The notes under the pieces were generated by a model. That model was given only the letters and a program-made list of their open reading frames with translations. It had not been told where the DNA came from and ran no database searches. Source: Mobula hypostoma (Eukaryota). From it: a stretch of 64,000 bases of DNA. Location: positions 71,116,001-71,180,000 of the forward strand of contig NC_086108.1 in assembly GCF_963921235.1 (NCBI RefSeq). The letters run 5' to 3'. The position numbers and the translations under genes were made by a program. Every line of letters begins with the position of its first letter. Position 1 is the stretch's first letter. Shown here in pieces: positions 34,997 through 63,386 of the stretch.

Positions 34997-35038
34997 ATGG
35001 CATTTTCTGCCATTTACTTTTTGGATAATAAAGGGCAG
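34997..35038 (+). CDS. AP-1 mu1-like subunit, coding exon 1 (MAFSAIYFLDNKGQ)
   Basis: aagATGG Kozak-like context, cag|gtgggt donor, 42 nt. Homologous to mu1A MSASAVYVLDLKGK. Confidence 0.9.
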
Positions 35039-36075
35039 GTGGGTTTCAGTTAAGACTGTATAGCTATAAAGTAAAAGTATTTGTATCTTCCATCTACTTC
35101 ATTATTTCCTCCTAAAGATTATCATATAAATCAATCACATGTATTAGAAATTTATGAAGTGTTACCATATTTCTCAATTTGCGTGCAATTTTTAATTTTG
35201 TAGTGTACGCATTAGTTGTTTTATCTGTTTTGATTTGTGTAAGACACACGTCCTACTTATTCATATTTAAAAGGTTGATTTTCTCTTGGATTCGATCTTC
35301 AGTTTTGAAAAAAAAAAGAACGAAGAATGTAACCTTACCATTGTGGTCTGTTTAATCACATAAAAATAAACATTTATTGCCTAAAGCAAGTGGTTACGAA
35401 CAAGACCAGATAGGAATTGTGCCCCACTCTATACCAGAAGGTGAATAAACAACCTGATATAATTGGTCCTGTTTTACTACTTGTTTTTCTGGGAGTACCA
35501 GACCATTCTCCACTACTTTCTTACACTTCATATCTGAAATTTGAACTATTGTTCAACTCAAGTGCAAAGTCATCAGGGGTAGATTTATACACTGCAGCAA
35601 GTTTAGACATATAGCTACTCAAACCTCTATATGTCAATATGTTCAAAATGACACGGCATCTTGGCTGCTTTCCTGCTTCATTCACAGTATAGTCAAATGA
35701 TGTGTCTATTTAATAATGTAAGATTGTCACAAGCAGCCTGATATATCTAGCTAAAAGGCCCACATACAGTACAATTAGGTTAATGTGCTATCTCACAAAT
35801 AAATCACAATTATTTGAATATAAACTGTTTTAATGCATCCATCATTCATTTCACCACCAACCCTACTCAATTTGGCTTAGTATTGTTTTGATAGCAACAT
35901 ATTTCTAGAAAGTTAATGAAAACTTTGCATACGGAGCATGAAGTTAATTTCTGAATTCATGTGGAGCAGAATTCACTATTTGGAATCATTTAACTATCAA
36001 TACAGTATAAGTATTTTCATGATTGAAATGACACAGTTTATGGCCAGTGATAAATTTTGTAGTACTGATTTACAG

Positions 36076-36232
36076 GTCCTTATCTCACGCAATTACCGAG
36101 GAGATGTTGAAATGTCAGTGATTGAGAAGTTCATGCCTTCACTTCTAAGGAATGAGGAGGATGGAGACTTGTGTCCTATTTTAAAGCAAGACCAAGTCTA
36201 TTTTCTATGGATTAAGTACAAAAACATCTACA
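36076..36232 (+). CDS. AP-1 mu1-like exon 2 (VLISRNYRGDVEMSVIEKFMPSLLRNEEDGDLCPILKQDQVYFLWIKYKNIY)
   Basis: tttacag| acceptor, ends at U12-type donor GTATCCTT, 157 nt. RNYRGDV motif of the mu1 longin domain. Confidence 0.95.
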
Positions 36233-36337
36233 GTATCCTTGAAATAAATTCAATTTAAGCAATTTTATTTGATAATGCCAGCATTTTCTACTTGGGCACG
36301 TGCTATGGAAGTTATAGAACCTTAACCTGAAATCCAG
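36233..36337 (+). other. U12-type (minor spliceosome) GT-AG intron, 105 nt
   Basis: 5' site GTATCCTT; branch site CCTTAAC at 36320-36326 ending 11 nt before the intron end; no polypyrimidine tract; flanking exons join in frame. Confidence 0.92.
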
Positions 36338-36405
36338 TGGTGTGTACAATAAAGAGAAACACCAACATTTCGTTGTCATTTTCATTTCTCTTCAAAGTAA
36401 AGCAG
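36338..36405 (+). CDS. AP-1 mu1-like exon 3 ((M)VCTIKRNTNISLSFSFLFKVKQ)
   Basis: ccag| acceptor, cag|gtaggc donor, 68 nt. Homologous to mu1A LVATSKKNACVSLVFSFLYKVVQ. Confidence 0.92.
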
Positions 36406-38715
36406 GTAGGCACAACCTGTTGTAAGTTGTATTTTTCAAGCTTTTTAACAAAAATATAGTCCTACCCCTTTTTAGTAGTGAAATGTAACTGTGCCACTAG
36501 CATTGTTGTTTTCTTTCTCTGAGCTGTCCAATTTAATAACATTGTCAGATAAAATAGAGAGAAGGCAGGAAGTTTAATATTTATTATAGTAAATAAGCTG
36601 TTTGGAGAACTCAGTATTTTGTTGTATCACTAACCAGTTTTGCATGGTCAAAGTCACTTGGATCACATTTCTGACATTTGGTCTGAACAACAACTGAACC
36701 TCTTGACCATGTCTGCATACTTTTATGCATTGAGTTGCTGCTAAAAGATTGGCTGATTAGATATTTGCATTAACGAGCAGGTGCACAGGTGTATCTAATA
36801 AAGTAGCCACTGAGTGTAAATGACTTTGACTGTGGAAGCTTGTGCCAAATGGGGTGGTATAAGTATCTCAGAAACTGCTGATCTCCTGTGATCTTCAAGC
36901 ACAACGATCTCTGGAGTTTACAGAGAATGGTATAAGAAACAAAAAAAAAATCCAGAGTAGCAATTCTGTGGGTGAAAATGCCTTTTTAATGGGAGGAGAA
37001 TGTATAGACTGGTTCAAGCTGACAGGAAGGCAACAGTAACTCAAATAACCACACATTACAACAGTGGTGTGCAGAAGAACATCTCTGAAAGCACATCACG
37101 TCAAACCTTAAAGTGAATGTGTTATGGCAACAGAAGATCACACCGGATTCCCCTCGTGTACCTAATAAAGTGTCCACCGATGCTGCAGGTGCCCTTCCAA
37201 GGAATTTAAGTGTGAAAGCCATTGCCTGTTATGGAAAAAATTGATAATTTCTGACTTCCAATTTTTCATTTAAGCTGGTAGTTAAGTCAGGCCAGATTTT
37301 TTTCCTTACTTTAAAAAAGAAAATAGGTTCCACCTGCATGGGGATTGCCTCAAATTCATGAAATACAACAGTTTCCCTTGACTTCTAATTAGAAGGCATA
37401 CTCATAGCATCAAAAATAGAATGTGAGTAACTTGTTACATGCCTCCTATGCTTTGTACAGTTCATTGTAAAAGAAAACAGGTCTTTCTATGTAGTTTTTA
37501 ATAAACTCTAATGCATTACTGATCTAGTGCATTACTGAGGCTGTTAATAGAGACACTCATATTTCCCCAAGTTATGATAATATAAAATCATCAGTGATCA
37601 AATCATACATACTGTTTTAAAACAAAAGTTGGTTAATGGAGTTAATCAATGCCATTCTTAGTTCTTTCTAGAAGGTAATGATTAATATCAATGGTTACAC
37701 TGGCAGGCATTGACTAATGTGTCCTTATTTACACAACTGAACTGATTAGAAATTTGGACTTTTTATAGCATTGTCACATTGATGAGTTTAATTTCCCTTT
37801 TTAAGTTGCTAACTATAATGTCATTTCTTTTAAAAAAATTTGATGGCATTTGCTCCAAAGATGGAATTAACTTCTGAATCATAACAAGTTGAGAAAATCA
37901 ACTGATGAAGTGTGGATAACAGCTTCTACCCCGCCACATTCGATGACTGAATCGTCCATAAGCACGACCTTATTACTGTCATTAGCACTATTTAATTTTG
38001 TATTTTATAGTAATTATTATGTCTTTCTCTATACTGCTGCTACAAAACACCAAATTACATGACATGCATCAGTGTTAATAAGCCTGATTCTGACTTTACA
38101 TCAGTTGTTGTCCATTAATTGTATAGTCCCTTTGGTTACCTGAGAGCATGGTGGATGTTAAATTAACAAATTTCCCTTCCTTTATTAACTTGGTGCCTCA
38201 GGGTAGTTTGCTCTAATAAATTAAAAAGTTAGACAGTATCTTCATGAAACATGAGTTTGATTTATTAACCTCTGTTGCAGTATTTGAAAATGATCGCTTT
38301 TTTTGTCTGCCATTCTGATACGAGGCAGCTGGTTTGAACAGTGCTCCTGGATGTTGCCCACATTTCCACACATAATTAAACAATTGTGTATGTCCATGTA
38401 CCGACATGTTGCTCCTTTGCTGTTAGTTGTTTTTTCATATGTCCAATAGTTTCCAAAGGAGTCGCATAGTTGAAACGTGGAAATGTTTGAAAATTGGGTT
38501 GTTGGGCGTTTGACCATGTCATTAAAATGAAAGTCACATGTAAGTTAACTCAAATCAGCTGTTTCTTCAATGTCATCAGAGGTCAATTTTTTTGTCGGTT
38601 TATCTGAAATATGTTGATCTTATCCCGTTTCAGTGAGAGTTTATTGAGTAGCAACAATAGAGGTAATCAGATTTTTAAAGAAAATATATTCCTATAATGT
38701 GAATAAGAATGGCTC

Positions 38716-39472
38716 AAAAGGTTTCAAAGGTATATTTAATGTCAGAGAAATGTATACAATATACATCCTGAAATGCTTTTTCTTCACAACTATCCACAAA
38801 AAACAGAGGAGTGCCCCAAAGAATGAATGACAGGTAAATGTTAGAACCACAAGGTCCCCCACTCCCACGCATAAGTGGCAGCAAGCAATGATCCCCATCA
38901 CCCCACCAGCCAAAAAAAAGCATTGGCACCCGCCACTGAGCACTCAAGTGTGAGCAAAGCAACAGCAAAGACACAGACTTGCAGTGCTCCAAAAACTACT
39001 TGTTCACCCGGTATTCGACATACTCTCTCTCTCCTAATAAGGGAGGAAAGAAGTGTCTCCGTTTAACAGCAAGAGTGGAGACATAAAATTCCGTTGCATT
39101 GCTTTTTCCGAGCTCCGAGCCCAAAGATCTTGGGTCCCTGGGCACACAGCCTTCCATCTTCCACCTACCACGACACACCGATCTCCTGACCAGACACTGA
39201 CCTTCGATCTGCCCGTCTCCAGAGCCATGAGGTCTCGGCCCTCCAAAGGCGAGTGGAGCTCTTAGGCTGCACCCTTGGCGTGCCGAATAACGGCCAGTAG
39301 TGAAACCCCGAGAGCGAGTCCCATTCCCGCAAAGGACTGTAGTCAGCGTGTAACTCCAGGTCAGGGTCTTCAAAAGAACCATGACAGGGAAAAATAGAGA
39401 TATTAAAGATAGAAATAGAGCTGTTTCCAAAGATGCAAGCAGAGGAGTCGGTGTTAGGCACCATTAATCCTC
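38716..39472 (-). mobile_element. About 750-bp non-coding interspersed element with a LINE-like tail
   Basis: Minus-strand tail tctctgacattaaatatacctttgaaaccttttga resembles the Rex1/Babar tails in this window; CpG-rich body; no RT motifs. Confidence 0.5.
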
Positions 39473-40139
39473 TTAAGCTCATGATTCATGATCACATTGC
39501 TAGAAACTTTTGCACAACTTAGAGTGTGAGATTTAGGAGTGACAGTATACTGCAGAATTCTAGGAAATATGGGAAGTACAGCACCTCACTGAAGGTTAAT
39601 GTTGGATGTTAAGGGATTTAATAATTGAAAGTCGATGTATCAGCTACTTGCACTTGTATAACACCTGGTATCAATGGCAACATCAGATATCAGGTGTGAG
39701 ATGGAAAAGGAAGAGAAATGGAAGAAAGGACTGGCTCAAATAATTAAAGCGGCAGCTCTTACGAAGGAGCTTGAAGTTAGGAGTGATCAAGTAAACCATT
39801 CATAAATATTGCCAGTCCCGTTGTAATTGATCAGCTACCTGCCATGTATGATGCTACATTTGGAAGTTGTCCATTTTTTGTTTGGCTGCTTTCAAAATCA
39901 AATAACAAATGTTGTGCTAAAAGCAGACCACCCTTTACTTAAGACATTAAATCTCTCCAATAGTAGCAAATGGCAAGACAATATGAGAAATCATACCATA
40001 TGATTTAGGTCCTAAATTAGATCTTAAAGATCACCTTCTTTGGAAATTCCTTGAGGATGACTTGCTCCACTTTGGTTTTGTTGGTTTTGAGGTGATAGGC
40101 TCATGTGGACAGCCCAGACTCTTCCACAGATCATCCAGG

Positions 40140-42180
40140 AGCACTTACATCCTGCTTTAAGAATATGGTGATCAAATATGCCAACTCCTGCCTGAGAAAC
40201 AACTTGGATCAATTTCAATTTGCCTACCATCACAACAGGTTCACAGCAGAGGCTCCTCACTCAACCTTGGAACACCTGGATAGCAAAATGCATACATCAG
40301 GATGCTCTTTATCGACTACAGCTCCGCATTCAACACTAACATATGCTCAAAACTAATCAATAAGCTTCAAGACCTTGGCCTCAATACCCCCTTGTGCAAT
40401 TAGATCCTCGATTTCCTCACTTGCAGACCCCAGTCAGTTTCGATTAGCAGCAACACTTTCTCCACAGTCTTCGTCAGTACAGGTGCACCAACAAGGCTGT
40501 GTGCTTAGCCCCCTGATCTACTTGCTTTACACTAATGACTGTGATGCTAAGCACAGCTCTAGTGCCGTATTTAAGTTTGCTGATGATAACACTATCATCG
40601 GCCAAATCAAAGGTGATGATGAATCAGCATATAGGAGGGAGATTGAATATCTGGCTGAGTGGTGCCACATCAACAACCTCTCTCTCACAGTCACAAGACC
40701 AAGGAGCTGATTATTGACTTCAAGAAGAGGAAATTGGAGGTCCATGAGCCAGTTCTTGTCAGGGGATCAGAGGTGGAGAGGGTCAGCAACTTCAAATTCC
40801 TCGGTGTTATCATTTCAGAGGATACGGTATCACTGGGCCCAGCACGTAAGCACGGTTATGAAGAAAGCATAGCGTGCTTTTACTTCGGAGTTTATGAATT
40901 TTGGCATGACATCATTATATAAGCAGCATCTATTATCATGGACTCTCTCCACCCAGACCATGCTCTCTTCCTGCTGCTGCCATCAGGAAGATGGTACAGG
41001 AGCCTCAGGAGCCACACCACCAGGTTCAGGAACAGTTATTACCCCTCAACCACCAGGCTCTTGAACTATTGGGAAAGCTTTACTCAACTTCACTCACCTC
41101 ATCACTAAACTGTTCCCACAATCTATAGATTTACTTTCAAGGACACTTCATCTCATGTTCTCAATATTTATGGCTTATTTATTTGTTATTATTGTTTCTT
41201 TTGTAGTTGTACACTTTGTTTTCTTTTGCACATTAGTTGTTTGTCTGTCCTGTTAGGCAGGGGTCCCCAACCTTTTTTGCTCCGTGGACCAGTTTAGTAT
41301 TGACAATATTCTTGCCGACTGGGGTTGGGGGTGGGGGGGTTGGTTAAACTCACTTCAACATGTCTTTTACAGTTAGGGTTGCCAACTTTCTCACTCCCAA
41401 ATAAGGGACAAAAGTAGCAGTCAAATCCCGGGACACTTTACCCCAGGAAAGACTACCATGACCATGAAGCCTTGCATGGGCACCTGTGTGTGCATGCATG
41501 ACTGCGCGTAGCTGTGCGCATGCGCATGTGCGTATGTGCTGATTTTTTTTTCCCACAAATCAGTTTTGCCTTCATCTTTCCGACTACACTGTACATACAT
41601 TATTTCTACTTTATATAGGCTGTGTATTTATCATATCATTCCCGCTTTTACTATATGTTAGTGTTATTTTAGGTTTTATGTGTTATTTGATATGATTTGG
41701 TAGGTTATTTTTTGGGTCTGGGAACGCTCAAAAATTTTTCTCATATAAATTAATGGCAATTGCTTCTTCGCTTTACGCCATTTCAGCACAAAAGGTTTCA
41801 TAGGAACGCTCTACCTTAGCGAGGAAAATACGGGACAAGGGCGGTCCCATATGGGACAAACCAATTTAGCCCAATATACGGGATGTCCCAGCAAATACGG
41901 GACAGTTGGCAACCCTATGTTCAAGTTCAACAGTGCGTGACAGGGAATGAGGAAAGGTGCAGCTGACTCATATCGTCTCCTCGCGGCTCGGTAGCACATG
42001 CTCTGCAGCCTGGTACCGGTCCACGGCCCGGTGGTTGGGGACCGCTGCTTTAGGGGCAGTCTTTCATTGATTCTATTATGTTTCCTGGATTTACTGAGTA
42101 TGCCTGCAAGAAAATGAATCTCAGGGCTGTATATGGCGACATATATGTACTTTGAAAATAAATCTACTTTGAACTTTTGA
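40140..42180 (+). mobile_element. Rex1/Babar-like LINE relic hosting a hAT composite
   Basis: [48 protein letters not shown]; tail aataaatctactttgaacttttga. Confidence 0.82.
41258..42047. mobile_element. Composite hAT-type MITE: outer TIR CAGGGGTCCCCAACC, inner TIR TAGGGTTGCCAACT at 41374-41917
   Basis: Both TIR pairs read directly; imperfect 8-bp TSD ctgttagg / ct-ttagg. Confidence 0.8.
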
Positions 42181-43454
42181 GATGGAGTGGAGGTTGCCTT
42201 ATGGCGGGTGGGTAGATAGATAGATATGTTGCAACGGTTAATGGTTTCTATGGATTTATTATTTTAAAGCAAAGCTATATGGTGTCCATTGTTGGTTCCT
42301 TTACCAAAGCATGCAAACCTTAAAACTTCTATGTGTTCCCAGTGTATAGACTTGAAGTTCTCAATATCATTTTAATGCACCTTCTCCAGTTTGAGTGTCA
42401 CGGTTTAGGGGTCCTTTGGGGTCACTGGGGATGTTACATTTTTTCAAGGAGACCTCTGAGCCATTTTCTTTGTCAGTGGTGATCTTCTCCTGTACCAGAG
42501 CTCAAAGTAGAGAGTCTATTTGGGGATACTTCGTGTCCAGCGTGTGGGTGACATGACATGGTCTCAATGACAATGGTGCAGAACCTGGCCTGGGCCCACC
42601 ATAACTCCTGAGCACTCCAACTGTCCAGCACATCCACTGCCTGTTGTGACAGACTCTAATGAATTGAATAAACTGCTACCTTTCTCTATTTTATTTACAC
42701 CACCTTGCTGTCCTGCTCTTCTGTCAAGCAAGAATCAATCCACATTACCAGCCTAGGGTCTGTGCTCTCTTTTATGTTGCATTCTTTACTGGGCAGTAAC
42801 CTCTCAGTTAATGCCAATGTCTGATGCAGCAAATTACTTCAGTTCTTACATACAATTTTCGGCATTACATGGCCAAATTATTTACTTCTCGGAAAGTCCA
42901 TTTTAACTTATTAAGAAAAACAATCCTTTGTGTTCTGATGTTAAATAAAACTTGTTCATAAAAGAATCAACTGGTAATATAACTATTTCGTCTTTTTCGC
43001 ACTGCACCATTAGGAGGAAAGCTGCAGTGGACTCCAGTGATTTCAGTAAACTGCTGTAGGTGACGCAGAGACTGGTCAAGGGCTCCAATAACTCAAGAAC
43101 CCACTGTGAGGTTAATTATACACTGCAGTAATCACACGCAATTTTTACTCTGCCCCTCTTCAGAGGAACTTGTTCTTTTTGTTCTTGTCCCATTCTTGAC
43201 TGGAAACAGAGAATAAAATGTATTTCCTTCTGGCAGGAAATACGGCTTAAGTTAAGGTCCCATCAAGCACTTGCATTAAAAAAACATAGCACAGAAAGGT
43301 GGTAAGTGAAAAGACGTGGGTGTCAGGGGTGCGGGTGTTTGCCTCAAAGAGATTTGGTTAGGTGAGGGAAGGACTCTCCTACTCTCCAGCAGACTGCATT
43401 CCTGGGGAAGAGGGCTCCTAACCTTTGGGTAGGTTCAATCTCAGATGCAGCCAG

Positions 43455-45176: not shown

Positions 45177-45307
45177 ATTTTCATAGAGTACTTTGGAGAT
45201 CTTGAACAGGAGAGTATAAAAGACAATTTTATTCTAATCTATGAGCTCCTTGACGAGATTATGGACTTTGGCTACCCGCAGATCACTGAAACCACGATCC
45301 TGCAGGA
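45177..45307 (+). CDS. AP-1 mu1-like exon 4 ([44 protein letters not shown])
   Basis: atttag| acceptor, |gtaggt donor, 131 nt. Diagnostic YELLDE.MDFGYPQ motif. Confidence 0.96.
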
Positions 45308-47817: not shown

Positions 47818-47965
47818 ATATATTACACAGGAAGGCTATAAATTGAAGAAAGGGACACCTAGACCGCCGGCTGCTGTAACCAATGCTGTATCCTGGAGAT
47901 CAGAAGGAATCAAATATCGCAAGAATGAATTTTTCATGGATATCATTGAGTCAATTAACCTCCTG
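47818..47965 (+). CDS. AP-1 mu1-like exon 5 (YITQEGYKLKKGTPRPPAAVTNAVSWRSEGIKYRKNEFFMDIIESINLL)
   Basis: catag| acceptor, |gttagt donor, 148 nt. VTNAVSWRSEGIKYRKNE is mu1-specific. Confidence 0.97.
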
Positions 47966-48940: not shown

Positions 48941-51900
48941 TAGAACATAGAACATAGAATAGTACAGCACAGTACAGGCCTTTCGGCCCACAATGTTGTG
49001 CTGACCCTCAAACCCTGCCTCCCATATAAGCCCCCACCTTAAATTCCTCCATATACCTGTCTAGTAGTCTCTTAAACTTCACTAGTGTATCTGCCTCCAC
49101 CACTGACTCAGGCAGTGCATTCCATGCACCAACCACTCTCTGAGTAAAAAACCTTCCTCTAATATCCCCCTTGAACTTCCCATCCCTTACCTTAAAGCCA
49201 TGTCCTCTTGTATTGAGCAGTGGTGCCCTGGGGAAGAGGCGCTGGCTATCCACTCTATCTATTCCTCTTATTATCTTGTACACCTCTATCATGTCTCCTC
49301 TCATCCTCCTTCTCTCCAAAGAGTAAAGCCCTAGCTCCCTTAATCTCTGATCATAATGCACACACTCTAAACCAGGCAGCATCCTGATAAATCTCCTCTG
49401 TACCCTTTCCAATGCTTCCACATCCTTCCTATAGCGAGGCGACCAGAACTGGACACAGTACTCCAAGTGTGGCCTAACCAGAGTTTTATAGAGCTGCATC
49501 ATTACATCGCGACTCTTAAACTCTATCCCTCGACTTATGAAAGTTAACGCCCCATAAGCTTTCTTAACTACCCTATCCACCTGTGAGGCAACTTTCAGGG
49601 ATCTGTGGACATATACCCCTAGATCCCTTTGCTCCTCCACACTACCAAGTATCCTGCCATTTACTATGTACTCTGCCTTGGAGTTTGTCCTTCCAAAGTG
49701 TACCACCTCACACTTCTCCGGGTTGAACTCCATCTGCCACTTCTCAGCCCACTTCTGCATCCTATCAATGTCTCTCTGCAATCTTTGACAATCCTCTACA
49801 CTATCTACAACACCACCAACCTTTGTGTCGTCTGCAAACTTGCCAACCCACCCTTCTACCCCCACATCCAGGTCGTTAATAAAAATCACAAAAAGTAGAG
49901 TACCCAGAACAGATCCTTGTGGGACACCACTAGTCACAATCCTCCAATCTGAATGTACTCCCTCCACCACCACCCTCTGCCTTCTGCAGGCAAGCCAATT
50001 CTGAATCCACCTGGCCAAACTTCCCTGGATCCCATGCCTTCTGACTTTCTGAATAAGCCTACCGCGTGGAGCCTTGTCAAATGCCTTACTAAAATCCATA
50101 TAGATCACATCCACCGCACTACCCTCATCTATATGGCTGATCACCTCCTCAAGGAACTCTATCAGACTTGTTAGACACGATCTGCCCTTCACAAAGCCAT
50201 GCTGACTGTACCTGATCAGACCATGATTCTCTAAATGCCCATTGATCCTATCTCTAAGAATCTTTTCCAACAGCTTTCCCACCACAGACGTAAGGCTCAC
50301 TGGTCTATAATTACCCGGACTATCCTTACTACCTTTTTTGAACAAGGGGACAACATTCGCCTCCCTCCAATCCTCCGGTACCATTCCCGTGGACAACAAG
50401 GACATAAAGATCCTAGCCAGAGGCTCAGCAATCTCTTCCCTCACCTCGTGGAGCAGTCTGGGGAATATTCCGTCAGGACCCGGGGACTTATCCGTCCTAA
50501 TGTATTTTAACAACTCCAACACTTAGTCTCCCTTAATATCAACATGTTCCAGAACATCAACCTCACTCATATTGTCCTCACCATCATCAAGTTCCCTTTC
50601 ATTGGTGAATACCGAAGAGAAGTATTCACTGAGGACCTCGCTCACTTCCACAGCCTCCAGGCACATCTTCCCACCTTTATCTCTAATCGGTCCTACCTTC
50701 ACTCCTGTCTTCCTTTTTTTCTTCACATAATTGAAGAATGCCTTGGGGTTTTCCTTTACCCCACTCGGCAAGGCCTTCTCATGCCCCCTTCTTGCTCTTC
50801 TCAGCCCCTTCTTAAGCTCCTTTCTTGCTTCCCTATATTCCTCAATAGACCCATCTGATCCCTGCTTCCTAAACCTCATGTATTCTGCCTTCTTCCACCT
50901 GACTAGATTTTCCACCTCACTTGTCACCCATGGTTCCTTCACCCTACCATTCTTTATCTTCCTCACCGGGACAAATTTATCCCTAACATCCTGCAAGAGA
51001 TCTCTAAACATCGACCACGTGTCCATAGTACATTTCCCTGCAAAAACATCATCCCAATTCACACCTGCAAGTTCTAGTCTTATAGCCTCATAATTTGCCC
51101 TTCCCCAATTAAAAATTTTCCTGTCCTCTCTGATTCTGTCCTGTTCCATGATAATGCTAAAGGCCAGGGAGCAGTAGTCACTGTCCCCCAGATGCTCACC
51201 CACTGAGAAATCTGTGACCTGACCCGGTTCATTACCTAGTACTAGATCTAGTATGGCATTCCCTCTAGTTGGCCTGTCCACATACTGTGACAGGAATCTG
51301 TCCTGGACACACTTAACAAACTCTGCCCCATCTAAACCCTTGGAATTAATCAGGTGCCAATCAATATTAGGGAAGTTAAAGTCACCCATAATAACAACCC
51401 TGTTATTTTTGCACCTTTCCAAAATCTGCCTCCCAATCTGCTCCTCTGTATCTCTGCTGCTACCAGGGGGCCTTTAGAATACCCCCAATAGAGTACTGCT
51501 CCCTTCCTGTTCCTGACTTCCACCCATACTGACTCAAAAGAGGATCCTGCTACATTACCCACCCTTTCTGTAGCTGTAATAGTATCCCTGACCAGTAATG
51601 CCACCTCTCTTCCCCTTTTTCCAACCTCTCTATCCCTTTTATAGCACTGAAATCCAGGAATATTGAGAATCCATTCCTGCCCTGGTGCCAGCCAAGTCTC
51701 TGTAATGGCCACTACATCATAATTCCATGTATGTATCCAAGCTCTCAGTTCATCACCTTTGTCCCTGATGCTTCTTGCATTGAGGTACACACATTTCAGC
51801 CCTTCTACCTTACTGTCTTTACACCGTTTATTCTGCTTCTCTTTCCTCAAAGCCTCTCTGTCTGTTAGATCTGGGTTTACTCCATGCATTTCTTTCACTG

Positions 51901-53855: not shown

Positions 53856-53982
53856 GTGAATACACGTGGCTGTATCGTCCACAGTGAGATTCTGGGACAA
53901 ATTCTGATTAATTGCTGCCTGAGTGGGATGCCTGAAGTGAGCTTAGGCTTCAATGACAATGCTCTTTTCAACCAGAATTCAA
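53856..53982 (+). CDS. AP-1 mu1-like exon 6 (VNTRGCIVHSEILGQILINCCLSGMPEVSLGFNDNALFNQNS)
   Basis: ttgcag| acceptor, |gtaagt donor, 127 nt. LSGMPE..LG.ND motif. Confidence 0.95.
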
Positions 53983-54708
53983 GTAAGTACATGAGCTGGG
54001 AATGGAGGAAAATGACCGGAGTTCTGAGGATCACTGAATGATCAGGCCAGGTTCACTTTGAACCTATCTATCTGACCTTGGCAATTCTATTAACAAATAA
54101 CAAAGGCCATTTTACCACTTTTGGCAGAGTAACTGCAAGCACTTATGTTAGTTTTCCAAACAAAGAAAAGAGCACCGATAGAAGCTTTTCATACCAATGT
54201 GTTTCTGAACGACCTGGTGTTGTTTTGCTGTCCTAATTATTGCTATAGCACTGCATCTATTTTTTTGTCCTATTCTGTTACATACCTTGGTCCTTTTTAA
54301 AAGTTACCATTGACTCTGCTTCTACCTCCATTTCAGATACTACAGTGAAGATTCAAACAAGTCTCTGTTATCAAGCAACAAATAATGCTCTTGGGCATCA
54401 TTTCAGAGATTACCTAATTACCTTTTTAAAATGTGTCATTTTGGAAAGATCATTAATGTGTTTGTGATCTTACACTGTGGTTTATATGGCAGCATTCTTG
54501 AACCTGTAGACCTCTTTAGTATCTTGGTTTGCTGTTGTCAAAGTATTGAATTTGCACGTTGATGGTATGGAGTGTTAGGCACTTTTCTTCGAGAGTGATA
54601 GTGCTGAGAAATGTTTTCTCTAACCTAAATTGCATCTGTATTCAATGACTAGTATTTGCAATCAATCTGTTCTCTGCAACTAAGAATGAATTCAGAATCA
54701 GAATTACA

Positions 54709-55872
54709 TAAGAACATGAGAAATAGGAGCAGGAGCAGGCCATCCGGCCCATCGAACCTGCTCCGCCATTCAATAAGATCATGGCTGATCTGTCCGTAAA
54801 CTCAGCTCCATCCACCTGCCTTTTCCCCATAACCCTTAATTCCCTTACTATGTAAAAACCTATCTAACTGTATCGTAAATATATTTAGTGAAGAAGTCAC
54901 AACTGCTTCCCTGGGCAGAGAATTCCACAGATTCACCACTGTCTGGGAAAAACAGTTTCTCCTCATCTCCATCCTAAATCTTCTCCCCTGAATCTTGAGG
55001 CAATGTTCCCTAGTTCTTGTCTCACCTACCAATGGAAATAACTTTCCTACTTCTATCGTATCTATCCCTTTCACAATTTTGTATATTTCTATAAGTTCCC
55101 CTCTCATTCTTCTGAACTCCAGAGAGTATAGTCCCAGGCGACTCAATCTCTCCTCATGGGTTAACCCCTTCATCCCTGGAATCAACCTGGTGAACCTCGT
55201 CTACACTGCCTCCAAAGCCAGTATATCCTGCCTCAAGTATGGAGACCAGAACTACACACAGTACTCCAGGTGCGGCCTCACCAGTAACCTGTATAGTTGC
55301 AGCATGACCTCCCTGCTCCTGAATTCAATCCCTCTAGCAATGAAGGCCAACACTCCATTTGCCTTCTTAATAACCTGTTGCACCTGCAAACCAACTTTTT
55401 GCAATTCATGAACAAGCACTCCCAAGTCCCTCTGCACAGCAGCATGCTGCAATCTTTCACCATTTAAATAATAATCTCTTCTTCTATTATTCCTTCCAAA
55501 GTGCATGATCTTGCATTTACCAATGTTGTATTCCATCTGCTAGACTTTGGCCCACTCACTTAACCTATCCATATCCCTCTGCAGACTCTCCACATCCTCC
55601 ACTCAGTTTTTCCACTCAGTTTAGTGTCATCAGCAAATTTTGCTATGCTACATCCAGTCCCCTCTTCCAAGTCATCAATGTAAATGGTAAACAGCTACGG
55701 GCCCAGCATCAACCCCTGTGGCACCCCACTCACCACAGATTGCCAACTGGAGAAACACCCATTTATATCAACTCTCTGCCTTCTATCGGTTAACCAATCC
55801 ACTATCCATGCCAATACATTTCCTCCGACTCCATGCATCCATATCTTATTTATAAGTCTCTTGTGTGGCACC
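54709..55872 (-). mobile_element. CR1 3' half, same subfamily as 18225-19580, inserted in the tail of a Rex1/Babar element
   Basis: KVPHKRL..GVPQGLMLGP and LVRPHLEYCV; translations nearly identical to the 18.6-19.6 kb copy. Confidence 0.9.
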
Positions 55873-55877
55873 TTACA

Positions 55878-56410
55878 ATCAGGTTTAATATCCCTATCAT
55901 GAAATTTGTAGTTTCCTAGCAGCAGTACATAATAATCAGAAAAAAAACTGTAAATAACAATAATATATATATATATCTGCTGTTGGAGGGGAAGAAGCTG
56001 TTCCCGAAACATTGATTGTGTGTCTTGCACCATCTCCTTGCTGGTAGCATAAGAGGACACGTCTTGGGTGATGGAGGTCCTTAATGATGGATGCCACATT
56101 CTTGAGGTATCTCCTTTTGAAGGGATCCTTGATCTTGGGGAGGCTACTGTCCATGATGGAACTGGCTGACTTTACATCTTCCTGCAGCTTCTTCTGATCC
56201 TGTGCAGTGACCCCTCCACACCAGATGGTGATGCAACCAGTTGGAATGCTCTCCACGGTACATCTGTAGAAATATGCCAGAGTCTCTGCTCACTTGCCAG
56301 GTCTCCTCAAGCTCCTAAAGATATATAGCTGCAGTCGTGTCTTCTTTGTAATTGAATCAATATGTTGGGCCCGGGATAGATCTTCCGTGATGTTAGCACC
56401 CAGGAAACAG
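55878..56410 (-). mobile_element. Rex1/Babar-like 3' fragment; its (CTGATT)n tail is displaced to 54692-54703
   Basis: ESIPTGCITIWCG..ASIIKDLHHP. Confidence 0.75.
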
Positions 56411-56840
56411 CAGAGAGCAGAGCCTGCTATAATAATGTATCAAACGTTATACCACATAGTACATTTTGTACACATGCCTAAATACAGTAACACAATCAGA
56501 TACAAATACTGTATCAGTGCTTCAAGTTATAACATCAAACCTGAATTTTATATTATTCAGAAAATAAATAAATCTTCCCTTTCTCATGCATTCATGGTGA
56601 AATCAACATACGAGGGTATGTTTCCAAACTTGAATTCAAATAAAATATTTCCAAACTTGAATTGAAAATAAATGTGCATTCTCAGGATCAAAGTCAAGAA
56701 TGTATTCCTGCCAGAGTAGTTTAATATCTCATTAAATTCATTTTTATTAAAACAAATTAAGCTGACTTGCATTTCATTTAAAGGTAAAATAGATGAGTGT
56801 CTGAAACCTAGTTAATATTAACTTTCTTGTTCCAATACAG

Positions 56841-56980
56841 TAAATGCTAACATGGTGGACTTTGAAGATATAAAATTCCATTCGTCTGTTCGGCTATCTC
56901 GCTTTGAGAATGAACGTGTCATCTCCTTCATCCCACCAGACAAGGAGTTTGAACTGATGTCCTATCGAGTTACCAACCGA
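56841..56980 (+). CDS. AP-1 mu1-like exon 7 ((I)NANMVDFEDIKFHSSVRLSRFENERVISFIPPDKEFELMSYRVTNR)
   Basis: atacag| acceptor, |gtagga donor, 140 nt (one codon shorter than mu1A). KFH..VRLSRFE and ISFIPPD.EFELMSYR motifs. Confidence 0.95.
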
Positions 56981-57476
56981 GTAGGATATGACTACTTGTA
57001 TTAACGTATTATTGTATTGGGACATTTCATAAAAACTTCTCAAGGAATATGAGTCGTAAATTGGCCACTTGAGTGAACTTATGGTATTATCCTTGAATCA
57101 TTTAACAAGCTAAGTACATAATTCAATCAGATCTATAAACTATATAAATGTATTATTCTAATTTCAATCTATTTCAGATGATTGATCACTCTTTGAATCC
57201 ATTATTTCAATAACATGTTGCTGGGCCACTCTCGCACGATAGTTAAAGATAAGACTAAAAAGGACTGATTTCTAATTATGGATTACTGTTTGAAGAGCCT
57301 TAGTTTTTCAGTAATTTCCAGTTAGAACAATATTCATTTTTTTGTTGCAAATTTAAATTGGAAGGAATGTCAACTATGAAAATAATGTTCTAGATTTTAT
57401 TACTCGTAACAAGTAGTGCAAAAAATCTTACAAATTGAATTATGAAATAAATGACTATGGGTGCATGTCTATTCAG

Positions 57477-57548
57477 GTCAGACCATATATAGTGGTTGAA
57501 GCAACTCTACAGAAATACTCGCATAGCAGAATGGAGATCACAACGAAG
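57477..57548 (+). CDS. AP-1 mu1-like exon 8 (VRPYIVVEATLQKYSHSRMEITTK)
   Basis: attcag| acceptor, aag|gtaaga donor, 72 nt. Homologous to VKPLIWIESVIEKHSHSRIEYMIK. Confidence 0.93.
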
Positions 57549-57577
57549 GTAAGAAAATGAGTAGGAAGATGAGGGTG

Positions 57578-58028
57578 CAGTGTTCCCTCTGAGGTGAGTG
57601 CATGCACACATCTTGTGCTACTAGCACACAAAGGGATTTAAACTGCACACAAAAGGTTGTGACCCTCTACCTCGTTGGCATGATAAGTGTATTTTACGAT
57701 CGTACACAATCACATTTCCTTTTCTGGTCCTGATGCGGGTGGTGTTGGCAGTGTTGAATTTGTGATGATCTGTCTGCAGATTTTAGGACTGGTTTATTTT
57801 TACTGTTTTTATTTAAGAAATTATCGATTCACTATGTCGAATTCTAAAGAAGCAAAGTGCAAAAGAACCACTAGTTCATTTAAAGCGGAATGGCTTATTA
57901 TCCTTAGAATAGCTTCAGCGTTACTTCCACTTAAAAATTCAGTGTTTACACGTTGTCGTCACTGAGCAAAACATTGCACAGCACAAGACTTTTGTGCAAA
58001 GTAGTCATTACAAGTTAGAGGAAAATAG
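57578..58028 (+). mobile_element. hAT-like non-autonomous element with a transposase N-terminal remnant
   Basis: TIR cagtgttccctctga / ttagaggaaaatag; flanks tgagggtg / caagggtg (6 of 8 match); MSNSKEAKCKRTTSSFKAEWL. Confidence 0.65.
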
Positions 58029-59242
58029 CAAGGGTGGTTATCTGTATGAAAATAGATTGAATGATTTAGCGTTTCTTATGAATAGGTAATCACAGTGTCA
58101 ATGACCCTGTTTGGATAACAACTATCAAGCATCTCTTCTGATAAATTATTTTAATTTCCCCTTACTCTTAATCCACTACCATTGTGCCATTTTGTATTAA
58201 TCCCTGGGTATTTGAGTATCTCAACCAATCTCCTTCATGGAAAGAGGCAAGACATGAGGCTAAGGGAATTATCCTTCAGTCTTTGGCTTCAAACCTTCTG
58301 ATGCTGTGAAAAGACGTTCACTTAAATGCCATTTATTTCTCCTCCTTAGTGAATTTGACGGTTAAATAGAAATATGTCTCAAAGATGCTTCCAATACATT
58401 ATTTTGGAGATCTTTTATTTCCTCCAAACATAGAAAAGTGTAGGCATCAAGGCATTGCATTTTGCTATTTTATAACTTATTTCTTCATTGGGTAGTTAGA
58501 GGACAAACAGAAGTGGCTAGAATTTTTTTTAGTCTTCCCTAGCTTGGTAGATTGACTGGTCCAATTGTGCACTAGGCTAGGATAGACAATCATAGAACAC
58601 TTGTGTCACAGGAGGCCATTCTTTCCATTTTACCCATGATAGATGACAAAGAGTTATCAAACCTAATTTATATTTCTAATAATTGGCCTGTACCCCTACA
58701 AACTCAGCTTTTCAAAAGCATGTCAGTGTACTGTTTCGCTTTGAAGGCTCTTACCCCTGTGTTTCTTTCCAGCAGTGACCTTCAGTCTCCACTGTCCTCT
58801 ATGTGATTCATTGTTCTTCTTGTCTCCCCACTAATCTCTTACCATTTACTTTAAAATTATGCCTCAAGGTTTTTGACCCCTCTGCTAAGGCAAGTGGGCT
58901 TTTTCTTACTTACTCTGTGGTAACACACAATTTTGTACAGTTCAGCTCAACCTTCCCTTGATGCTCTCTATTGCCAAGAAAACATTGCCAGCTTGTTCTA
59001 TCTTTCCTCATCACTAATGATTTCCTAGCCCTGCACCATCCCCCTAAACCTCTTTTGTACCCAGCACAGAACAAGCACAACTAAGAAAAATTGGTTCAAA
59101 GCAAGTACCTTACTGCTGTATGGGTTAGTATCATTCCAGACAGTGAATTGTACTGTATGTGAAGCCATAACATTATGTCTATATACACTGGTAAAAAATA
59201 ATTATAGAAATAGATATTCTCTGCAACTCTGTGATGTCGCAG

Positions 59243-59401
59243 GTTAAAGGACAATTCAAGAAGCACATTATGGCTACAGACATTGAGATTATTATCCCTG
59301 TTCCCAGTGATGCTTCCTCCCCAAGATTCAGCACTATTAAAGGTTCTGTAGAATGGGCACCTGAGGACAATGCTATCATCTGGACCATGAATTCAATTAA
59401 A
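59243..59401 (+). CDS. AP-1 mu1-like exon 9 (VKGQFKKHIMATDIEIIIPVPSDASSPRFSTIKGSVEWAPEDNAIIWTMNSIK)
   Basis: tcgcag| acceptor, |gtaagt donor, 159 nt. IPVP.DA.SP.F and GSV.W.PE motifs. Confidence 0.95.
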
Positions 59402-60009
59402 GTAAGTTAATGTAAAATATGAAAATCTGGGATGTCCACAAATGATCTATTACAGCAGAAAATTTTACTCTGTTAGGTTTGTACTTGTGTTTTTTGATAT
59501 TTGCAGAATTAAAGTGGTTCATTTGGGCTTAAACTGCTGCAGAAATGGTGCTTCAGGTCTTCATGTGGATAATTTCAACGCATCAATTAATGACAGATGA
59601 GAGACCAATCAAATATGCCTTTGATACTTTTACAATAAGACCATAAGGCATAGGAACAGCCACCAGGCCAGAGTTTTGCATTCAAAAATCCTTTATATTT
59701 CTAAGTCACTATTTGTCCCTACTGAACTGTAACATGTTCATTAGCTAGAAATCAACTATGGTAACGATTCAATATTGAGTTCCCTTATAAGCTATTGGTT
59801 TCATGATTCTTTACCAATTCTAAAGGAAAACGTGTATATAGAACATAGAAACTTACAGCACAGTACAGGCCCTTTGGCCCACAATGTTGTGCCGACCCTT
59901 TAACTTACTCCAACATCAATCTAACCCTTCCATCCCAAATAACCCTCCATTTTTCTACAACCCACGTGCCTATCTAAGAGTCTCTTAAATGACCTCGGCA
60001 TTAAATGGC

Positions 60010-60940
60010 ATTAATCTACAGTGCATCACCCACAGTCCAATGGTCTGCGCGAGTGGTTTCACCGTTCATTAAAGGCTGCTCTGAGGGCCTCTTGATGGAC
60101 AATGTTGGCACGGTTATCTTCCATGGATCCTGTTGGGGCTTAGAATGGCTCCAAAAGAGGAACCTGCAGGCCTCCGCCGATGAGTTGGTGTACGGGCAGC
60201 TGCTACAGGTGCCAGGTGATTGTATTCCTGGTGCCATGTCTGCCTTTTCAGTGTCTCAGTAAACTCAATTCTTTCACACCTATTCCTACTGCACATCAGG
60301 TGGTACAGCACTCCTGGGTTCCACTTAACCTGCAGTCTACCTCCTCCTCCCTTCTCCGCCATGGTGCATATCAACGTCCCTTTTAAGCCCCATTACGATG
60401 GTCCATTCCGTGTACTGGAACAGGATGCAATGACTCTTATTGTAGATAGGAAGGGTAAAGCGGAATGTATTTCTGCAGATCGCATTAAACCGGCTCACCA
60501 AGACCTGAATGGCACCACGACCATACCCCCTGCATCGTGACATGACCATGTCCGTGTCAGCACGCAACTGGACAAGCCAGTGGCACCTGCTGTTACTCCA
60601 ACCAAGGTTCACAGGAGCTGAGCCGGGAGGCTCTTACAAGTTCCTTCAGACTCACACTGCCGGTTTTGGTGAATTCTGGGGGTGGGGGGGGCGGTACCTG
60701 TTTAAGGTAATGTAAATGGGTGACAGATGACGCATATTGTCTATAATAGAAACTCATTCATCATTCACAAACACCGTCATTGAATTATTGTGTTCACTTT
60801 AAGAGATGGTGTCTGATGTGATGACATCAGTGTAAGTATAAGCTTAATTTAAAAGCCTTATCATTGTTTCAAATCCAGTTGTGGTTGAAACTTTCTACTT
60901 CATCCTTCTTCAGTACTCTATCCATTGAGACTTAGTCACA
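60010..60940 (+). mobile_element. Ty3/Gypsy relic: integrase core and C-terminus, polypurine tract, probable 3' LTR
   Basis: HHPQSNGLREWFHRSLKAAL, ELVYG, PHYDGPFRVL, ISADRIKPA; G-rich tract 60678-60694; LTR-like segment to about 60940 (ends CA). Confidence 0.78.
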
Positions 60941-61635
60941 TTGTGCACTATTGACCTTAGTCACTGAACCACTGACAGCCATGATTTAGCTGGCTCTGTT
61001 CTATATTCTGTAAATCTCTTCACTAAACCCCACCCCCTCTTGTTTATTTCTCCTTTAGGATACTCCTTAAAATTTCTCCATCAGCCAAACTATTTACATC
61101 TTGGTAACGTAGCTTATTTAAAATACCCTTTAGCTCCTTTTGATATGTTAAATTTGCCTAAAAATTACCATATTGTTCTTCAGCTAACAAAAGCTATAAT
61201 TAGCAGTCATTCATTTGTGAAAAGGACAGCTTATTTGAAACATTGGGAATCACAATTTTCTCACTACTGAATTCCATTACATTAGCTTTGCTCTGATGAG
61301 TAAATGGAACAATCAATAATTATCGATGAAGTAAAATGGCCTAAAAATGGTCTGTGATTCCCAAGTACTGTCTATTCATCATACTAACATGCAGGAACAT
61401 AGTCAGACTGAGAATTATTAAGTCATAAATGGTTGGAAGAATCTTACAACATAGCGATCACTCCACAAGATACCAACAGCTTCCCTCAATAACTTGAACA
61501 CAATCTCTTTTACCTGTAGTTATACATCAGTGCAGAGAATAGCTATCCAAAAGTTTATGGTTTTATTTTAAAGATAAAAACCTTTCTAGTATATTTGATT
61601 GCTGATGATGTTATATCATTGCTCAATTGTTTAAG

Positions 61636-61761
61636 GGAGGGAAAGAATTTGTAATGAAGGCACATCTGGGACTACCGAGTATAGAGGCCGAGGAACCTGA
61701 ATCTAAACCTCCAGTCAGAGTGAAGTTCAAAATCCAGTACCTAGCCGCATCAGGTCTACAG
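61636..61761 (+). CDS. AP-1 mu1-like exon 10 (GGKEFVMKAHLGLPSIEAEEPESKPPVRVKFKIQYLAASGLQ)
   Basis: tttaag| acceptor, cag|gtacag donor, 126 nt. GGKE..M.AH.GLPS motif. Confidence 0.94.
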
Positions 61762-62546
61762 GTACAGTTCATTCATCCTTAACAAAACACCTTTAGATGG
61801 CATGTATTTAATTAATATTTGTATCTTTACAAAGGTGAATAGCACTGCTAGACCTAGAACAGAAAGCTCAATTATTGCAGTTTAATGATTTACCCTTGCT
61901 TGTAAAGGCAATTTATTATACAAACGTATTTCATATTGGGTTAAGTGTAATGTCTCTTTCTGTGTTTGATAACCATTTATTTCAAGTATCTTATAGACAA
62001 ATCTTTGACTTTGAAACTGTGATCTTATAATGACCTAACAATGAGGAACTCTGAGCTTAAAGTCCAATCTGTGCACATTTAAGGTATAAAACAGTTAAGA
62101 GATAAATCCAAATTTTAATCAAATCTATTGTTGTTTCACTTTGAGATTGTGACTGGAATCCCTGTGAGATTGATGTAATGAAAATATTTCTCCTTATTTT
62201 CTCTATTGCTGTTAAACGTGTCTCTCCACCCCCCCCCCCCAGTGCCATTCTCCCATTCTTGTGTTTTCTCCCCCTGTACTTCAACCTATACATAACATTC
62301 TTAGTGAACCCAGCTTGGTTAGTCTTGCTCCATTATAAATATGGTTTCCTCAATAAATCCTGATCGATGAAAGAAGTCTTGCTGGTTAAGTAGGTGTACC
62401 ATTAATTAAGTTATAATGTTTTATATTGAATGAATGTTACAACAAGCTCCAGGCAACCACTATTTTTCTTACAGTGCTGCCCAGTACCAATCGCAAACAA
62501 GAGAAGATCTGCAGGTGCTGGAAATCTGAGCAACATGCACTTCACT

Positions 62547-62631
62547 ATGCTGGAGGAACTCAGCAGGCCAGGCAGCATCAAAAGAAGATTCTTTCCTAGA
62601 TGCTGCCTGGCCTGCTGAGTTCCTCCAACAT
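62547..62631. repeat. Perfect 29-bp inverted repeat (62551-62579 / 62599-62627) from two Penelope-like pseudo-LTR ends
   Basis: tggaggaactcagcaggccaggcagcatc and its exact reverse complement separated by 19 nt. Confidence 0.95.
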
Positions 62632-62726
62632 TTTGTGGGTGTTGGCCAGTACCAATAGAATTTTCTTTGATAAAATATTAGATATTATGTCAAACAAGCA
62701 CCTGAATAACAGTTTCATTTTTATAG

Positions 62727-62802
62727 ATCAAATATGTGCGAATAATAGAGAAGGGACGCTATGAGGCAACTTCCTGGGTTCGATGCCTAACAAAAAGTGG
62801 AG
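62727..62802 (+). CDS. AP-1 mu1-like exon 11 (IKYVRIIEKGRYEATSWVRCLTKSG)
   Basis: ttatag| acceptor, g|gtaatg donor, 76 nt. WVR cargo-binding strand. Confidence 0.94.
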
Positions 62803-63254
62803 GTAATGCTTCATTGAAAAATTGCAGACATTATTTTATGAAATAAATTTGTGGAGTTTAGTAGTGTACAAGATGAAATTTTGTTGCACGTGGAGAACTC
62901 CTGTTTTAATTGTGTTACAGTGAGGGGGTACCAAATAAAAATCACCAAATCCAACAGGAAGTGAGAATAAATTGGGTGCAAGTAATCCTGATTTACCATC
63001 TTACTGATTGACCAGGTAGTTATACAGACCGAGACTGTATAGTTTGTGCATGGTGATGAAGTTGGAAATAAATCCACAAGTTCTCAGCCTGAGGAGGAAC
63101 AGGATTCAAATCATTAGCCACTTATTAGATTGTCAAGTGTGGACACTTGACAGATTCAGAAGAATAAATCTGTCGGTACACATGACTGTCTTGATTCCAC
63201 ATGGGGCAACAGTAACATTGCTGTACTTTGGGATGACCACGGGTGATGTAATAA

Positions 63255-63345
63255 CAAATCTATTGCTTTTCTTTGTTTTTTGGTGGCTGCCTGCAAGAAA
63301 ATGAACCTCAAAGTTGTATATGGCATATATACTTTAATAATAAAT
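63255..63345 (+). mobile_element. Rex1/Babar-like 3' tail abutting the last splice acceptor of the mu1-like gene
   Basis: gcctgcaagaaaatgaacctca..gttgtatatggc..tactttaataataaat matches the tails at 12730-12800 and 42100-42175. Confidence 0.65.
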
Positions 63346-63366
63346 AAATCTCTCATTTGCCCCTAG

Positions 63367-63386
63367 ATTTTCAGATTCGCATTTAA
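63367..63386 (+). CDS. AP-1 mu1-like terminal exon 12 ((D)FQIRI*)
   Basis: ccctag| acceptor, TAA at 63384-63386. Homologous to mu1A DYQLRTQ*. All 12 exons sum to 1266 nt with no internal stop. Confidence 0.85.

What the first reader, a model, noticed from the sequence alone, without database searches (positions are those of the whole stretch)
34997..63386. Intact but strongly divergent AP-1 mu1 paralogue: possible third AP-1 complex variant
Seen in sequence: 12 exons with canonical splice sites join into an uninterrupted 421-aa mu1-type protein. Exon lengths (42/157/68/131/148/127/140/72/159/126/76/20) match the AP1M1 layout as I recall it, apart from one codon lost in exon 7 and one at the C-terminus. 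By hand alignment to human mu1A recalled from memory, identity is about 59% (exons 1-5 about 68%, exons 6-12 about 53%). Established: mu1A is highly conserved across vertebrates, mu1A and mu1B are roughly 80% identical, and cartilaginous fish proteins usually evolve slowly. Inference: this is not an ordinary AP1M1 or AP1M2 orthologue but a fast-evolving paralogue still under selection. It could define a specialised AP-1 adaptor. Its relation to teleost mu1C (ap1m3) is unknown.
Basis: partly seen in the sequence, partly recalled or inferred. Interest (0 to 1): 0.78.

Follow-up and report, generated by a model that had tools for sequence, protein, structure and literature searches.

The report
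Fourth AP-1 mu1 gene of sharks
Sharks, rays and chimaeras keep an intact fourth, strongly diverged copy of the cargo-picking subunit of the AP-1 vesicle-sorting adaptor, not found here in any other animal, and its fixed changes around the cargo pocket would likely make a variant adaptor that sorts a different set of proteins.

Summary
In detail: 12 GT-AG exons give a 421-aa mu1-type protein, identical to RefSeq Mobula hypostoma 'mu-1-like', 59% identical to mammalian mu1A. It is a fourth mu1 gene, not a third: the genome also holds ordinary AP1M1, AP1M2 and ap1m3/mu1C genes, 81-83% alike and only 55-59% like this one. Orthologues occur in 22 named cartilaginous fishes including the chimaera, and in no other named protein retrieved. 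They form one clade (100/100) on a stem of about 1.0 substitutions per site, against 0.02-0.05 for the other paralogues. The tyrosine-pocket core and phospho-linker are kept. The pocket rim and basic membrane face carry fixed changes (R201N, K199L, K346N, R303E). Its branching point is unresolved (six AU tests, none rejected). Gene order suggests an old local duplication beside ap1m3. Best reading: a likely tissue-restricted variant AP-1 with altered cargo choice. Assembly, cargo, tissue and dN/dS are untested. No description was found in the papers searched. New variant of a known kind; interest 0.55.

The parts
34997..35038 (+). coding exon 1 (ATG; 42 nt); AT-rich surroundings, no CpG island
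36076..36232 (+). exon 2 (157 nt), N-terminal longin domain
36233..36337 (+). intron 2, 105 bp, U12-type GT-AG (donor GTATCCTT, branch-like CCTTAAC); same donor in the three other mu1 genes
   Evidence: consensus recalled
36338..36405 (+). exon 3 (68 nt)
45177..45307 (+). exon 4 (131 nt)
47818..47965 (+). exon 5 (148 nt): linker with T154, start of mu-homology domain, F172 and D174 (codon 47939-47941)
53856..53982 (+). exon 6 (127 nt): carries K199L, R201N (codon 53910-53912), R211S, K217N
56841..56980 (+). exon 7 (140 nt; one codon shorter than in the paralogues; basic loop around R225-K229 rewritten)
57477..57548 (+). exon 8 (72 nt)
59243..59401 (+). exon 9 (159 nt): basic-patch region K298-R304 and K346N (codon 59390-59392)
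61636..61761 (+). exon 10 (126 nt)
62727..62802 (+). exon 11 (76 nt): W408 (62775-62777) and R410 (62781-62783) of the tyrosine pocket
63367..63386 (+). exon 12, coding part with TAA stop

Best explanation
This is an intact fourth AP-1 mu1 gene kept across cartilaginous fishes, and its protein likely replaces the ordinary mu1 in an AP-1 core to give a likely tissue-restricted adaptor predicted to select a different set of cargo. Shown: intact gene, separate from AP1M1, AP1M2 and ap1m3; DNA-level duplicate (same 12-exon layout and U12 intron); one clade with a very long stem and then a slower but still raised rate; residues kept and changed as listed. Inferred steps: (1) the N-terminal longin domain would bind the common beta1 subunit with gamma and sigma1 (about 80%); (2) the T154 linker would allow the usual opening switch; (3) the kept F172/D174/W408/R410 core would still take a tyrosine signal, while the changed rim (R201N, K199L, V392I, R393K, L395V, L406T/I, P407S, Y411C/S) and thinner basic face (K346N, R303E, R211S, K217N, K227N, K229N, K333E) would shift signal preference and weaken acidic-cluster and membrane contacts (about 65%); (4) expression is likely restricted, as the first coding exon lacks the CpG island of AP1M1 and ap1m3 (about 60%). 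Origin: likely an old local duplication in the block that also holds ap1m3, at or before the split of AP1M2 from ap1m3, followed by loss in bony vertebrates.
For: Four mu1 loci in the genome, same exon layout. Identities 55.0-59.3% to the other three, which are 81-83% alike; coral mu1 is 76-81% like those three. Clade of 15 at 100/100, stem 1.03 vs 0.044/0.045/0.022. Of 430 proteins fetched, 53 are closer to this clade by 152 bits or more; 52 are named chondrichthyans and 1 is an unnamed 1.7-kb contig in the skate cluster; the next margin is 3 bits. 42 columns are conserved in both groups but with different residues, 30 of them in the cargo domain; 59 of 75 canonical-conserved N-domain columns are unchanged (21 vs 57 sequences). 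F172, D174, W408, R410, T154 are kept in 21 of 21; R201 is N in 20 and T in 1; K346 is N in 20 of 21; R303 is E in 17 of 21. Roles of R201/D174/R410 (PMC6770538, passages), W408 and K274/K298/K302/R303/R304 (PMC5584140, passages), R167/K168/K346/R303/R304 at the membrane (PMC9586487, passages). Spliced mRNA exists in relatives: a 1705-nt contig encodes the whole 418-aa protein and the chimaera record is an NP_ entry. CpG o/e 0.33 at this ATG vs 0.74 (AP1M1), 0.72 (ap1m3), 0.53 (AP1M2). Neighbours: IPO13 - this gene - FZR1-like - EBNA1BP2, and CDC20-like ... C1orf210-like - ap1m3 - CFAP57; in pig CDC20...C1orf210, TMEM125, CFAP57, EBNA1BP2 lie in one 1-Mb run (PMC12189728, table row).
Against: No binding, cargo or tissue data were obtained. 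Within chondrichthyans it still evolves 1.7-4.2 times faster than its paralogues, which also fits relaxed constraint. [quoted passage not shown] Mobula itself has K, not E, at position 303. The true transcription start is unknown, so the CpG argument is weak; three CpG-rich 400-bp windows lie elsewhere in the window. The tree does not place the clade: six constrained placements were all non-rejected (p-AU 0.067-0.41). It is 17 Mb from ap1m3 here, and which gene order is ancestral was not established.
Confidence: 0.6

Rival explanations
1. A functionally redundant or dosage copy: it assembles into AP-1 and sorts the same cargo as mu1A/B/C, and its divergence reflects relaxed constraint after duplication rather than a new job.
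For: Rate 1.7-4.2 times that of the paralogues in the same species pairs. mu1 pocket and basic-patch mutants rescue sorting in cells (PMC5584140). Apparently absent from bony vertebrates.
Against: 42 constant-but-different columns and 237 of 423 invariant columns in 21 sequences. A stem of about 1.0 followed by short crown branches. Retained from chimaera to rays beside three other mu1 genes.
Confidence: 0.18
2. It has left the standard AP-1 cycle: it pairs with other large subunits (gamma2, or beta2/alpha), or acts as a cargo-poor regulatory mu that competes with ordinary mu1 for the core.
For: A run of basic residues conserved in at least 56 of 57 canonical sequences (as K or R) is lost (199, 201, 211, 217, 227, 229, 333, 346). 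12 N-domain columns are constant but different.
Against: The tyrosine-pocket core, T154 linker and R167/K168 are kept. It is far closer to mu1 (585 bits) than to mu2 (306), mu3 (186) or mu4 (132). No extra beta1/beta2 or sigma1 gene was found; gamma genes were not searched.
Confidence: 0.15
3. Rival on origin only: it is the missing fourth whole-genome-duplication copy (partner of AP1M1), or a later chondrichthyan-only duplicate of ap1m3.
For: Neither grouping is rejected: with AP1M1 p-AU 0.072, with all ap1m3 0.191, with chondrichthyan ap1m3 0.067. An EH-domain hit lies 1.55 Mb from it, as one does about 1 Mb from AP1M1. It shares a chromosome with ap1m3 in 10 of 10 other species where both contig lengths could be compared.
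Against: A relocated ohnologue would have had to land in the same mammal-syntenic block as ap1m3. It shares 1 of 20 states typical of chondrichthyan ap1m3, 0 of 5 of all ap1m3 and 3 of 12 of AP1M2+ap1m3 (all three also in one lamprey gene); at 6 of those 12 sites most of its sequences show the AP1M1/invertebrate state.
Confidence: 0.3
4. A decaying pseudogene or annotation artefact.
For: One of the orthologue records (Scyliorhinus torazame) is flagged LOW QUALITY PROTEIN. No expression data were obtained for Mobula.
Against: Open frame and 11 GT-AG introns. Full-length orthologues in 22 named species, 78% identical between Mobula and chimaera. A second S. torazame record is 426 aa and 90.5% identical to the Heptranchias protein.
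Confidence: 0.02

Closest known systems
AP1M1 / mu1A (ubiquitous AP-1A medium subunit; PDB 4HMY, 1W63)
   Same: Same domain order, 12-exon layout and U12 intron; 59% identity with one internal gap; F172, D174, W408, R410, T154 kept.
   Different: Separate locus (AP1M1 is on contig C73, 93-98% like bony-vertebrate mu1A); stem about 20 times longer; R201, K199, R211, K217, K346 lost; no CpG island at the ATG.
AP1M2 / mu1B (epithelial AP-1B medium subunit)
   Same: Precedent for a swapped mu subunit that gives a tissue-specific AP-1 (PMC10138411 abstract passage).
   Different: mu1B is 80% identical to mu1A; this protein is 56% identical to the genome's own AP1M2 (C81) and shares 0 of 11 AP1M2-typical states.
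ap1m3 / mu1C (zebrafish; also coelacanth, bichir, sturgeon, sharks)
   Same: Same chromosome, and neighbours from the same mammal-syntenic block.
   Different: The true ap1m3 is a separate gene at C50:88.28 Mb that groups with bony-fish ap1m3 (94/84); this protein is 55% identical to it.

Membership tests
AP complex medium subunits, AP-1 mu1 subfamily | N-terminal longin domain plus C-terminal mu-homology domain (PF00928), full length | tested here: met
   End-to-end match to solved mu1, E 6.6e-175; PF00928 in 5 of 9 exons scanned. PF01217 is not listed for the clade in the precomputed column, consistent with divergence.
AP complex medium subunits, AP-1 mu1 subfamily | Closer to mu1 than to mu2, mu3, mu4 | tested here: met
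   585 vs 306, 186, 132 bits
AP complex medium subunits, AP-1 mu1 subfamily | Tyrosine-signal pocket residues D174, R201, W408, R410 | tested here: inconclusive
   D174, W408, R410 kept in 21 of 21; R201 replaced in 21 of 21; binding itself not tested
AP complex medium subunits, AP-1 mu1 subfamily | Linker phospho-threonine T154 (role recalled) | tested here: met
   T in 21 of 21
AP complex medium subunits, AP-1 mu1 subfamily | Assembly with beta1, gamma and sigma1 | not tested
AP1M1 orthologues | Is the genome's AP1M1 locus, nesting among vertebrate mu1A with ordinary branch length | tested here: not met
   A separate AP1M1 on C73 nests in the mu1A clade 100/95
AP1M2 orthologues | Is the genome's AP1M2 locus, nesting among vertebrate mu1B | tested here: not met
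   A separate AP1M2 on C81, identical to XP_062892141.1, nests in the mu1B clade 98/95
ap1m3 / mu1C orthologues | Is the genome's ap1m3 locus, nesting with bony-fish ap1m3 | tested here: not met
   A separate ap1m3 at C50:88.28 Mb nests with coelacanth, bichir and teleost ap1m3; a sister relation of the whole clade to ap1m3 is not excluded
Retrocopy | Loss of introns | tested here: not met
   All 11 introns at the ancestral positions

The most novel reading that the evidence does not exclude
An unrecognised fourth vertebrate AP-1 adaptor ('AP-1D'): an early jawed-vertebrate duplicate of mu1 that rewired its cargo face, recognises a sorting signal different from classical YxxPhi in one specialised tissue, was kept for the whole history of cartilaginous fishes and was lost in bony vertebrates.
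Probability: 0.3. Interest if true: 0.75.

Novelty: new variant of a known kind. Interest (0 to 1): 0.55.

Why it matters
mu1 is very slow-evolving: in this alignment coral mu1 is 76-81% identical to the three ordinary Mobula mu1 proteins. A copy that moved to 55-59% and was then held across all three main branches of cartilaginous fishes is a natural experiment in how an AP adaptor changes cargo specificity. It gives ready-made substitutions at the tyrosine pocket rim and membrane face for biochemistry. It also revises the vertebrate count of mu1 genes from three to four and may point to a sorting route that bony vertebrates lost. The gene is already auto-annotated as 'mu-1-like', so the novelty is its recognition as a distinct conserved paralogue, not the sequence.

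Tried and rejected
Structure prediction from a 50-row alignment gave a poor model (mean pLDDT 57.5, pTM 0.35); it was not used and no fold search was run. Tree placement: six AU tests on a 29-row subset, none rejected, so no sister group is claimed. The pig 'mu-1 isoform 2' record P0035 was dropped from trees because it looked chimeric (89.7% to AP1M1, 87.0% to mu1B); 16 near-redundant rows were thinned before the 60-row tree. High-scoring non-shark hits P0034, P0102 and P0208 are long records at 47-53% identity and are not closer to this clade than to ordinary mu1. The 50%-cluster library search listed no better relative (best 150 of 7395). No sequencing-run data were obtained, so tissue and codon-level dN/dS stay open. 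Expression in print: supplements of PMC3466250 and PMC11979771 could not be read and may hold the tissue; 8 and 2 supplement files of PMC13188829 and PMC12768270 had no hit. The zebrafish mu1C paper was not held. PMC4018625 had none of six residue terms. Searches for co-diverged partners found three sigma1 loci and two beta1/beta2 loci, nothing extra (lower bounds). Earlier scan findings: none. My ORF and exon finders for neighbours were weak (one search recovered 2 of this gene's 12 exons), so neighbour lists are incomplete.
Full report
Observation. Splicing the 12 exons at 34997-63386 gives 1266 nt, 421 aa, one terminal stop, and all introns GT-AG. Five of 9 exons scanned hit the Pfam adaptor-medium-subunit family in order, and the protein aligns end to end with solved mu1 (E 6.6e-175). 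It is identical to RefSeq XP_062920450.1 of Mobula hypostoma, named 'mu-1-like'. Intron 2 is a 105-bp U12-type intron (consensus recalled); its donor recurs in all four mu1 genes.

It is a fourth mu1 gene. A search of the own genome found four mu1 loci: AP1M1 on C73, AP1M2 on C81, ap1m3 at C50:88.28 Mb, and this gene at C50:71.15 Mb. All share the exon layout, so this is a DNA-level duplicate, not a retrocopy. The three ordinary proteins are 81-83% alike; this one is 59.3, 55.8 and 55.0% like them, further than coral mu1 is (76-81%). In a 60-row tree (LG+C20+F+G4; one chimeric-looking row dropped, 16 redundant rows thinned) the three ordinary genes nest with their bony-vertebrate namesakes. 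The 15 sequences of this gene form a clade at 100/100 with a stem of 1.03 substitutions per site, against 0.044, 0.045 and 0.022 for AP1M1, AP1M2 and ap1m3 (0.95 in the 29-row tree). So it is not the mu1C orthologue.

Distribution. Orthologues were named in 22 species of rays, skates, sharks and the chimaera Callorhinchus. A search with the most divergent region gave clade members at 69-100% and all other listed hits at 57% or less (best 120 of 1500 listed, from 1944 candidates). Of all 430 proteins fetched, 53 score at least 152 bits better against this clade than against mu1A/B/C; 52 are named chondrichthyan records and one is an unnamed contig clustered with skates; the next margin is 3 bits. 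Absence from bony vertebrates and cyclostomes rests on protein databases; their genomes could not be searched, so an unannotated or decayed copy is not excluded.

Selection. Codon data from other species were not available, so dN/dS was not computed. Protein evidence shows constraint: 78% identity between Mobula and chimaera, and 237 of 423 columns invariant in 21 sequences. The gene still changes 1.7-4.2 times faster than its paralogues in matched species pairs. The shape is a burst on the stem, then a slower crown. 42 columns are at least 90% conserved both in 57 canonical mu1 and in the 21 clade members but with different residues; 30 are in the cargo domain.

Anatomy and likely working. 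Numbering is that of mu1A. In the N-terminal domain 59 of 75 canonical-conserved columns are unchanged, which fits continued assembly on beta1 (inferred). T154 in the linker is kept in 21 of 21 (its role as the opening phospho-site is recalled). The tyrosine pocket is formed by R201, D174 and R410 (PMC6770538, figure-legend passages) and W408 (PMC5584140, passages). D174, W408, R410 and F172 are kept in 21 of 21, but position 201, basic in 56 of 57 canonical sequences, is N in 20 and T in 1. Nearby K199, V392, R393, L395, L406, P407 and Y411 also differ. Of the acidic-cluster patch K274/K298/K302/R303/R304, K298 and K302 stay and 303 is E in 17 of 21 (K in Mobula). Of the membrane contacts R167, K168 and K346 (PMC9586487, passages), the first two stay basic in 20 and 21 of 21 and K346 is N in 20 of 21. 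The most likely reading is an AP-1 with the common large and small subunits and a shifted cargo preference. No extra beta1/beta2 or sigma1 locus was found. Against over-reading: human mu1 lacking the pocket and patch still rescued sorting in cells. A structure prediction was too poor to use.

Expression. Relatives are transcribed and spliced: a 1705-nt contig encodes the whole 418-aa protein, and the chimaera entry is an NP_ record with GenBank protein AFK11264.1; that it comes from the full-length cDNA set of PMC3466250 (passages read) is recalled, not shown. The tissue is unknown. The ATG region is AT-rich (GC 0.31, CpG o/e 0.33), unlike AP1M1 (0.58, 0.74) and ap1m3 (0.53, 0.72). This hints at restricted expression, but the start site is unmapped.

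Origin. The tree does not resolve the branching point: grouping with ap1m3, chondrichthyan ap1m3, AP1M1, AP1M2, AP1M2+ap1m3, or outside all vertebrate mu1 was never rejected (p-AU 0.19, 0.067, 0.072, 0.19, 0.41, 0.40). Gene order is more telling. This gene lies between IPO13 (single match in the genome) and a second FZR1-like gene, followed by EBNA1BP2. ap1m3 lies between a C1orf210-like gene (LRR19-TM domain; gene name recalled) and CFAP57, 0.33 Mb from a CDC20-like match. In pig, CDC20, MPL, TIE1, C1orf210, TMEM125, CFAP57 and EBNA1BP2 are consecutive (PMC12189728, one table row). One inversion of about 17 Mb would join the two Mobula blocks and bring the two mu1 genes within a few hundred kb; which order is ancestral was not determined. 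Both genes share a chromosome in 10 of 10 other species with comparable contig lengths. The clade shares 1 of 20 states typical of chondrichthyan ap1m3 and 3 of 12 typical of AP1M2+ap1m3, which leans to an early split. I favour an old local duplication with loss in bony vertebrates; a later chondrichthyan duplication or a fourth ohnologue remain open.

Literature. Four searches of the open library bore on prior description: ap1m3+zebrafish (3 papers; passages of PMC10138411 name only ap1m1-3); AP1M1/AP1M2/paralog/cartilaginous fish/shark (0 papers); 'AP-1 complex subunit mu'/shark/testis/elasmobranch (none of the 12 listed of 157 held the first term); mu1C/ap1m3/duplication/ohnolog (2 unrelated listings). 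Subscription papers, including the zebrafish mu1C paper, and unreadable supplements could mention it.

Verdict. Real, intact, and a distinct conserved paralogue: a new variant of a known kind. The specialised-adaptor function is likely but untested. Interest 0.55.

Noticed in passing
G000:C5:125.27-125.82 Mb (L111-L115): Five near-identical copies of the AP-4 beta-1 appendage exon in both orientations within 0.55 Mb: a recent segmental expansion of AP4B1 or an assembly artefact.
   Followed up: partly
window 9476-9565 and 14975-15184 (+): Exons of importin-13 (IPO13), the upstream neighbour; single match in the genome.
   Followed up: yes
L052:5659-5877 (-), L053:3811-3936 (-); G000:C50:71.19-71.20 Mb: A second FZR1/Cdh1-type gene about 15 kb beyond the stop codon on the opposite strand; the other copy is on C73 at 92% identity over this exon.
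   Followed up: partly
window 36233-36337: U12-type intron shrunk to 105 bp, against about 1.9, 5.2 and 16.5 kb in the three other mu1 genes.
   Followed up: partly
L069:2969-3346 (+); G000:C50:71.36 Mb: A 126-codon single-exon frame with a predicted C-terminal membrane segment and no convincing Pfam match.
   Followed up: no
G000:C50:88.27-88.31 Mb: ap1m3/mu1C, usually described from teleosts, is present and conserved in sharks, rays, coelacanth, bichir and sturgeons, and is sister to AP1M2 (94/88).
   Followed up: yes
window 4358-6970 (+), 49011-51473 (-), 16836-17986 (+): Long LINE-type reverse-transcriptase/endonuclease frames and a Tc1-like transposase remnant, recognised by eye from the translations; one LINE lies in intron 5.
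   Followed up: no
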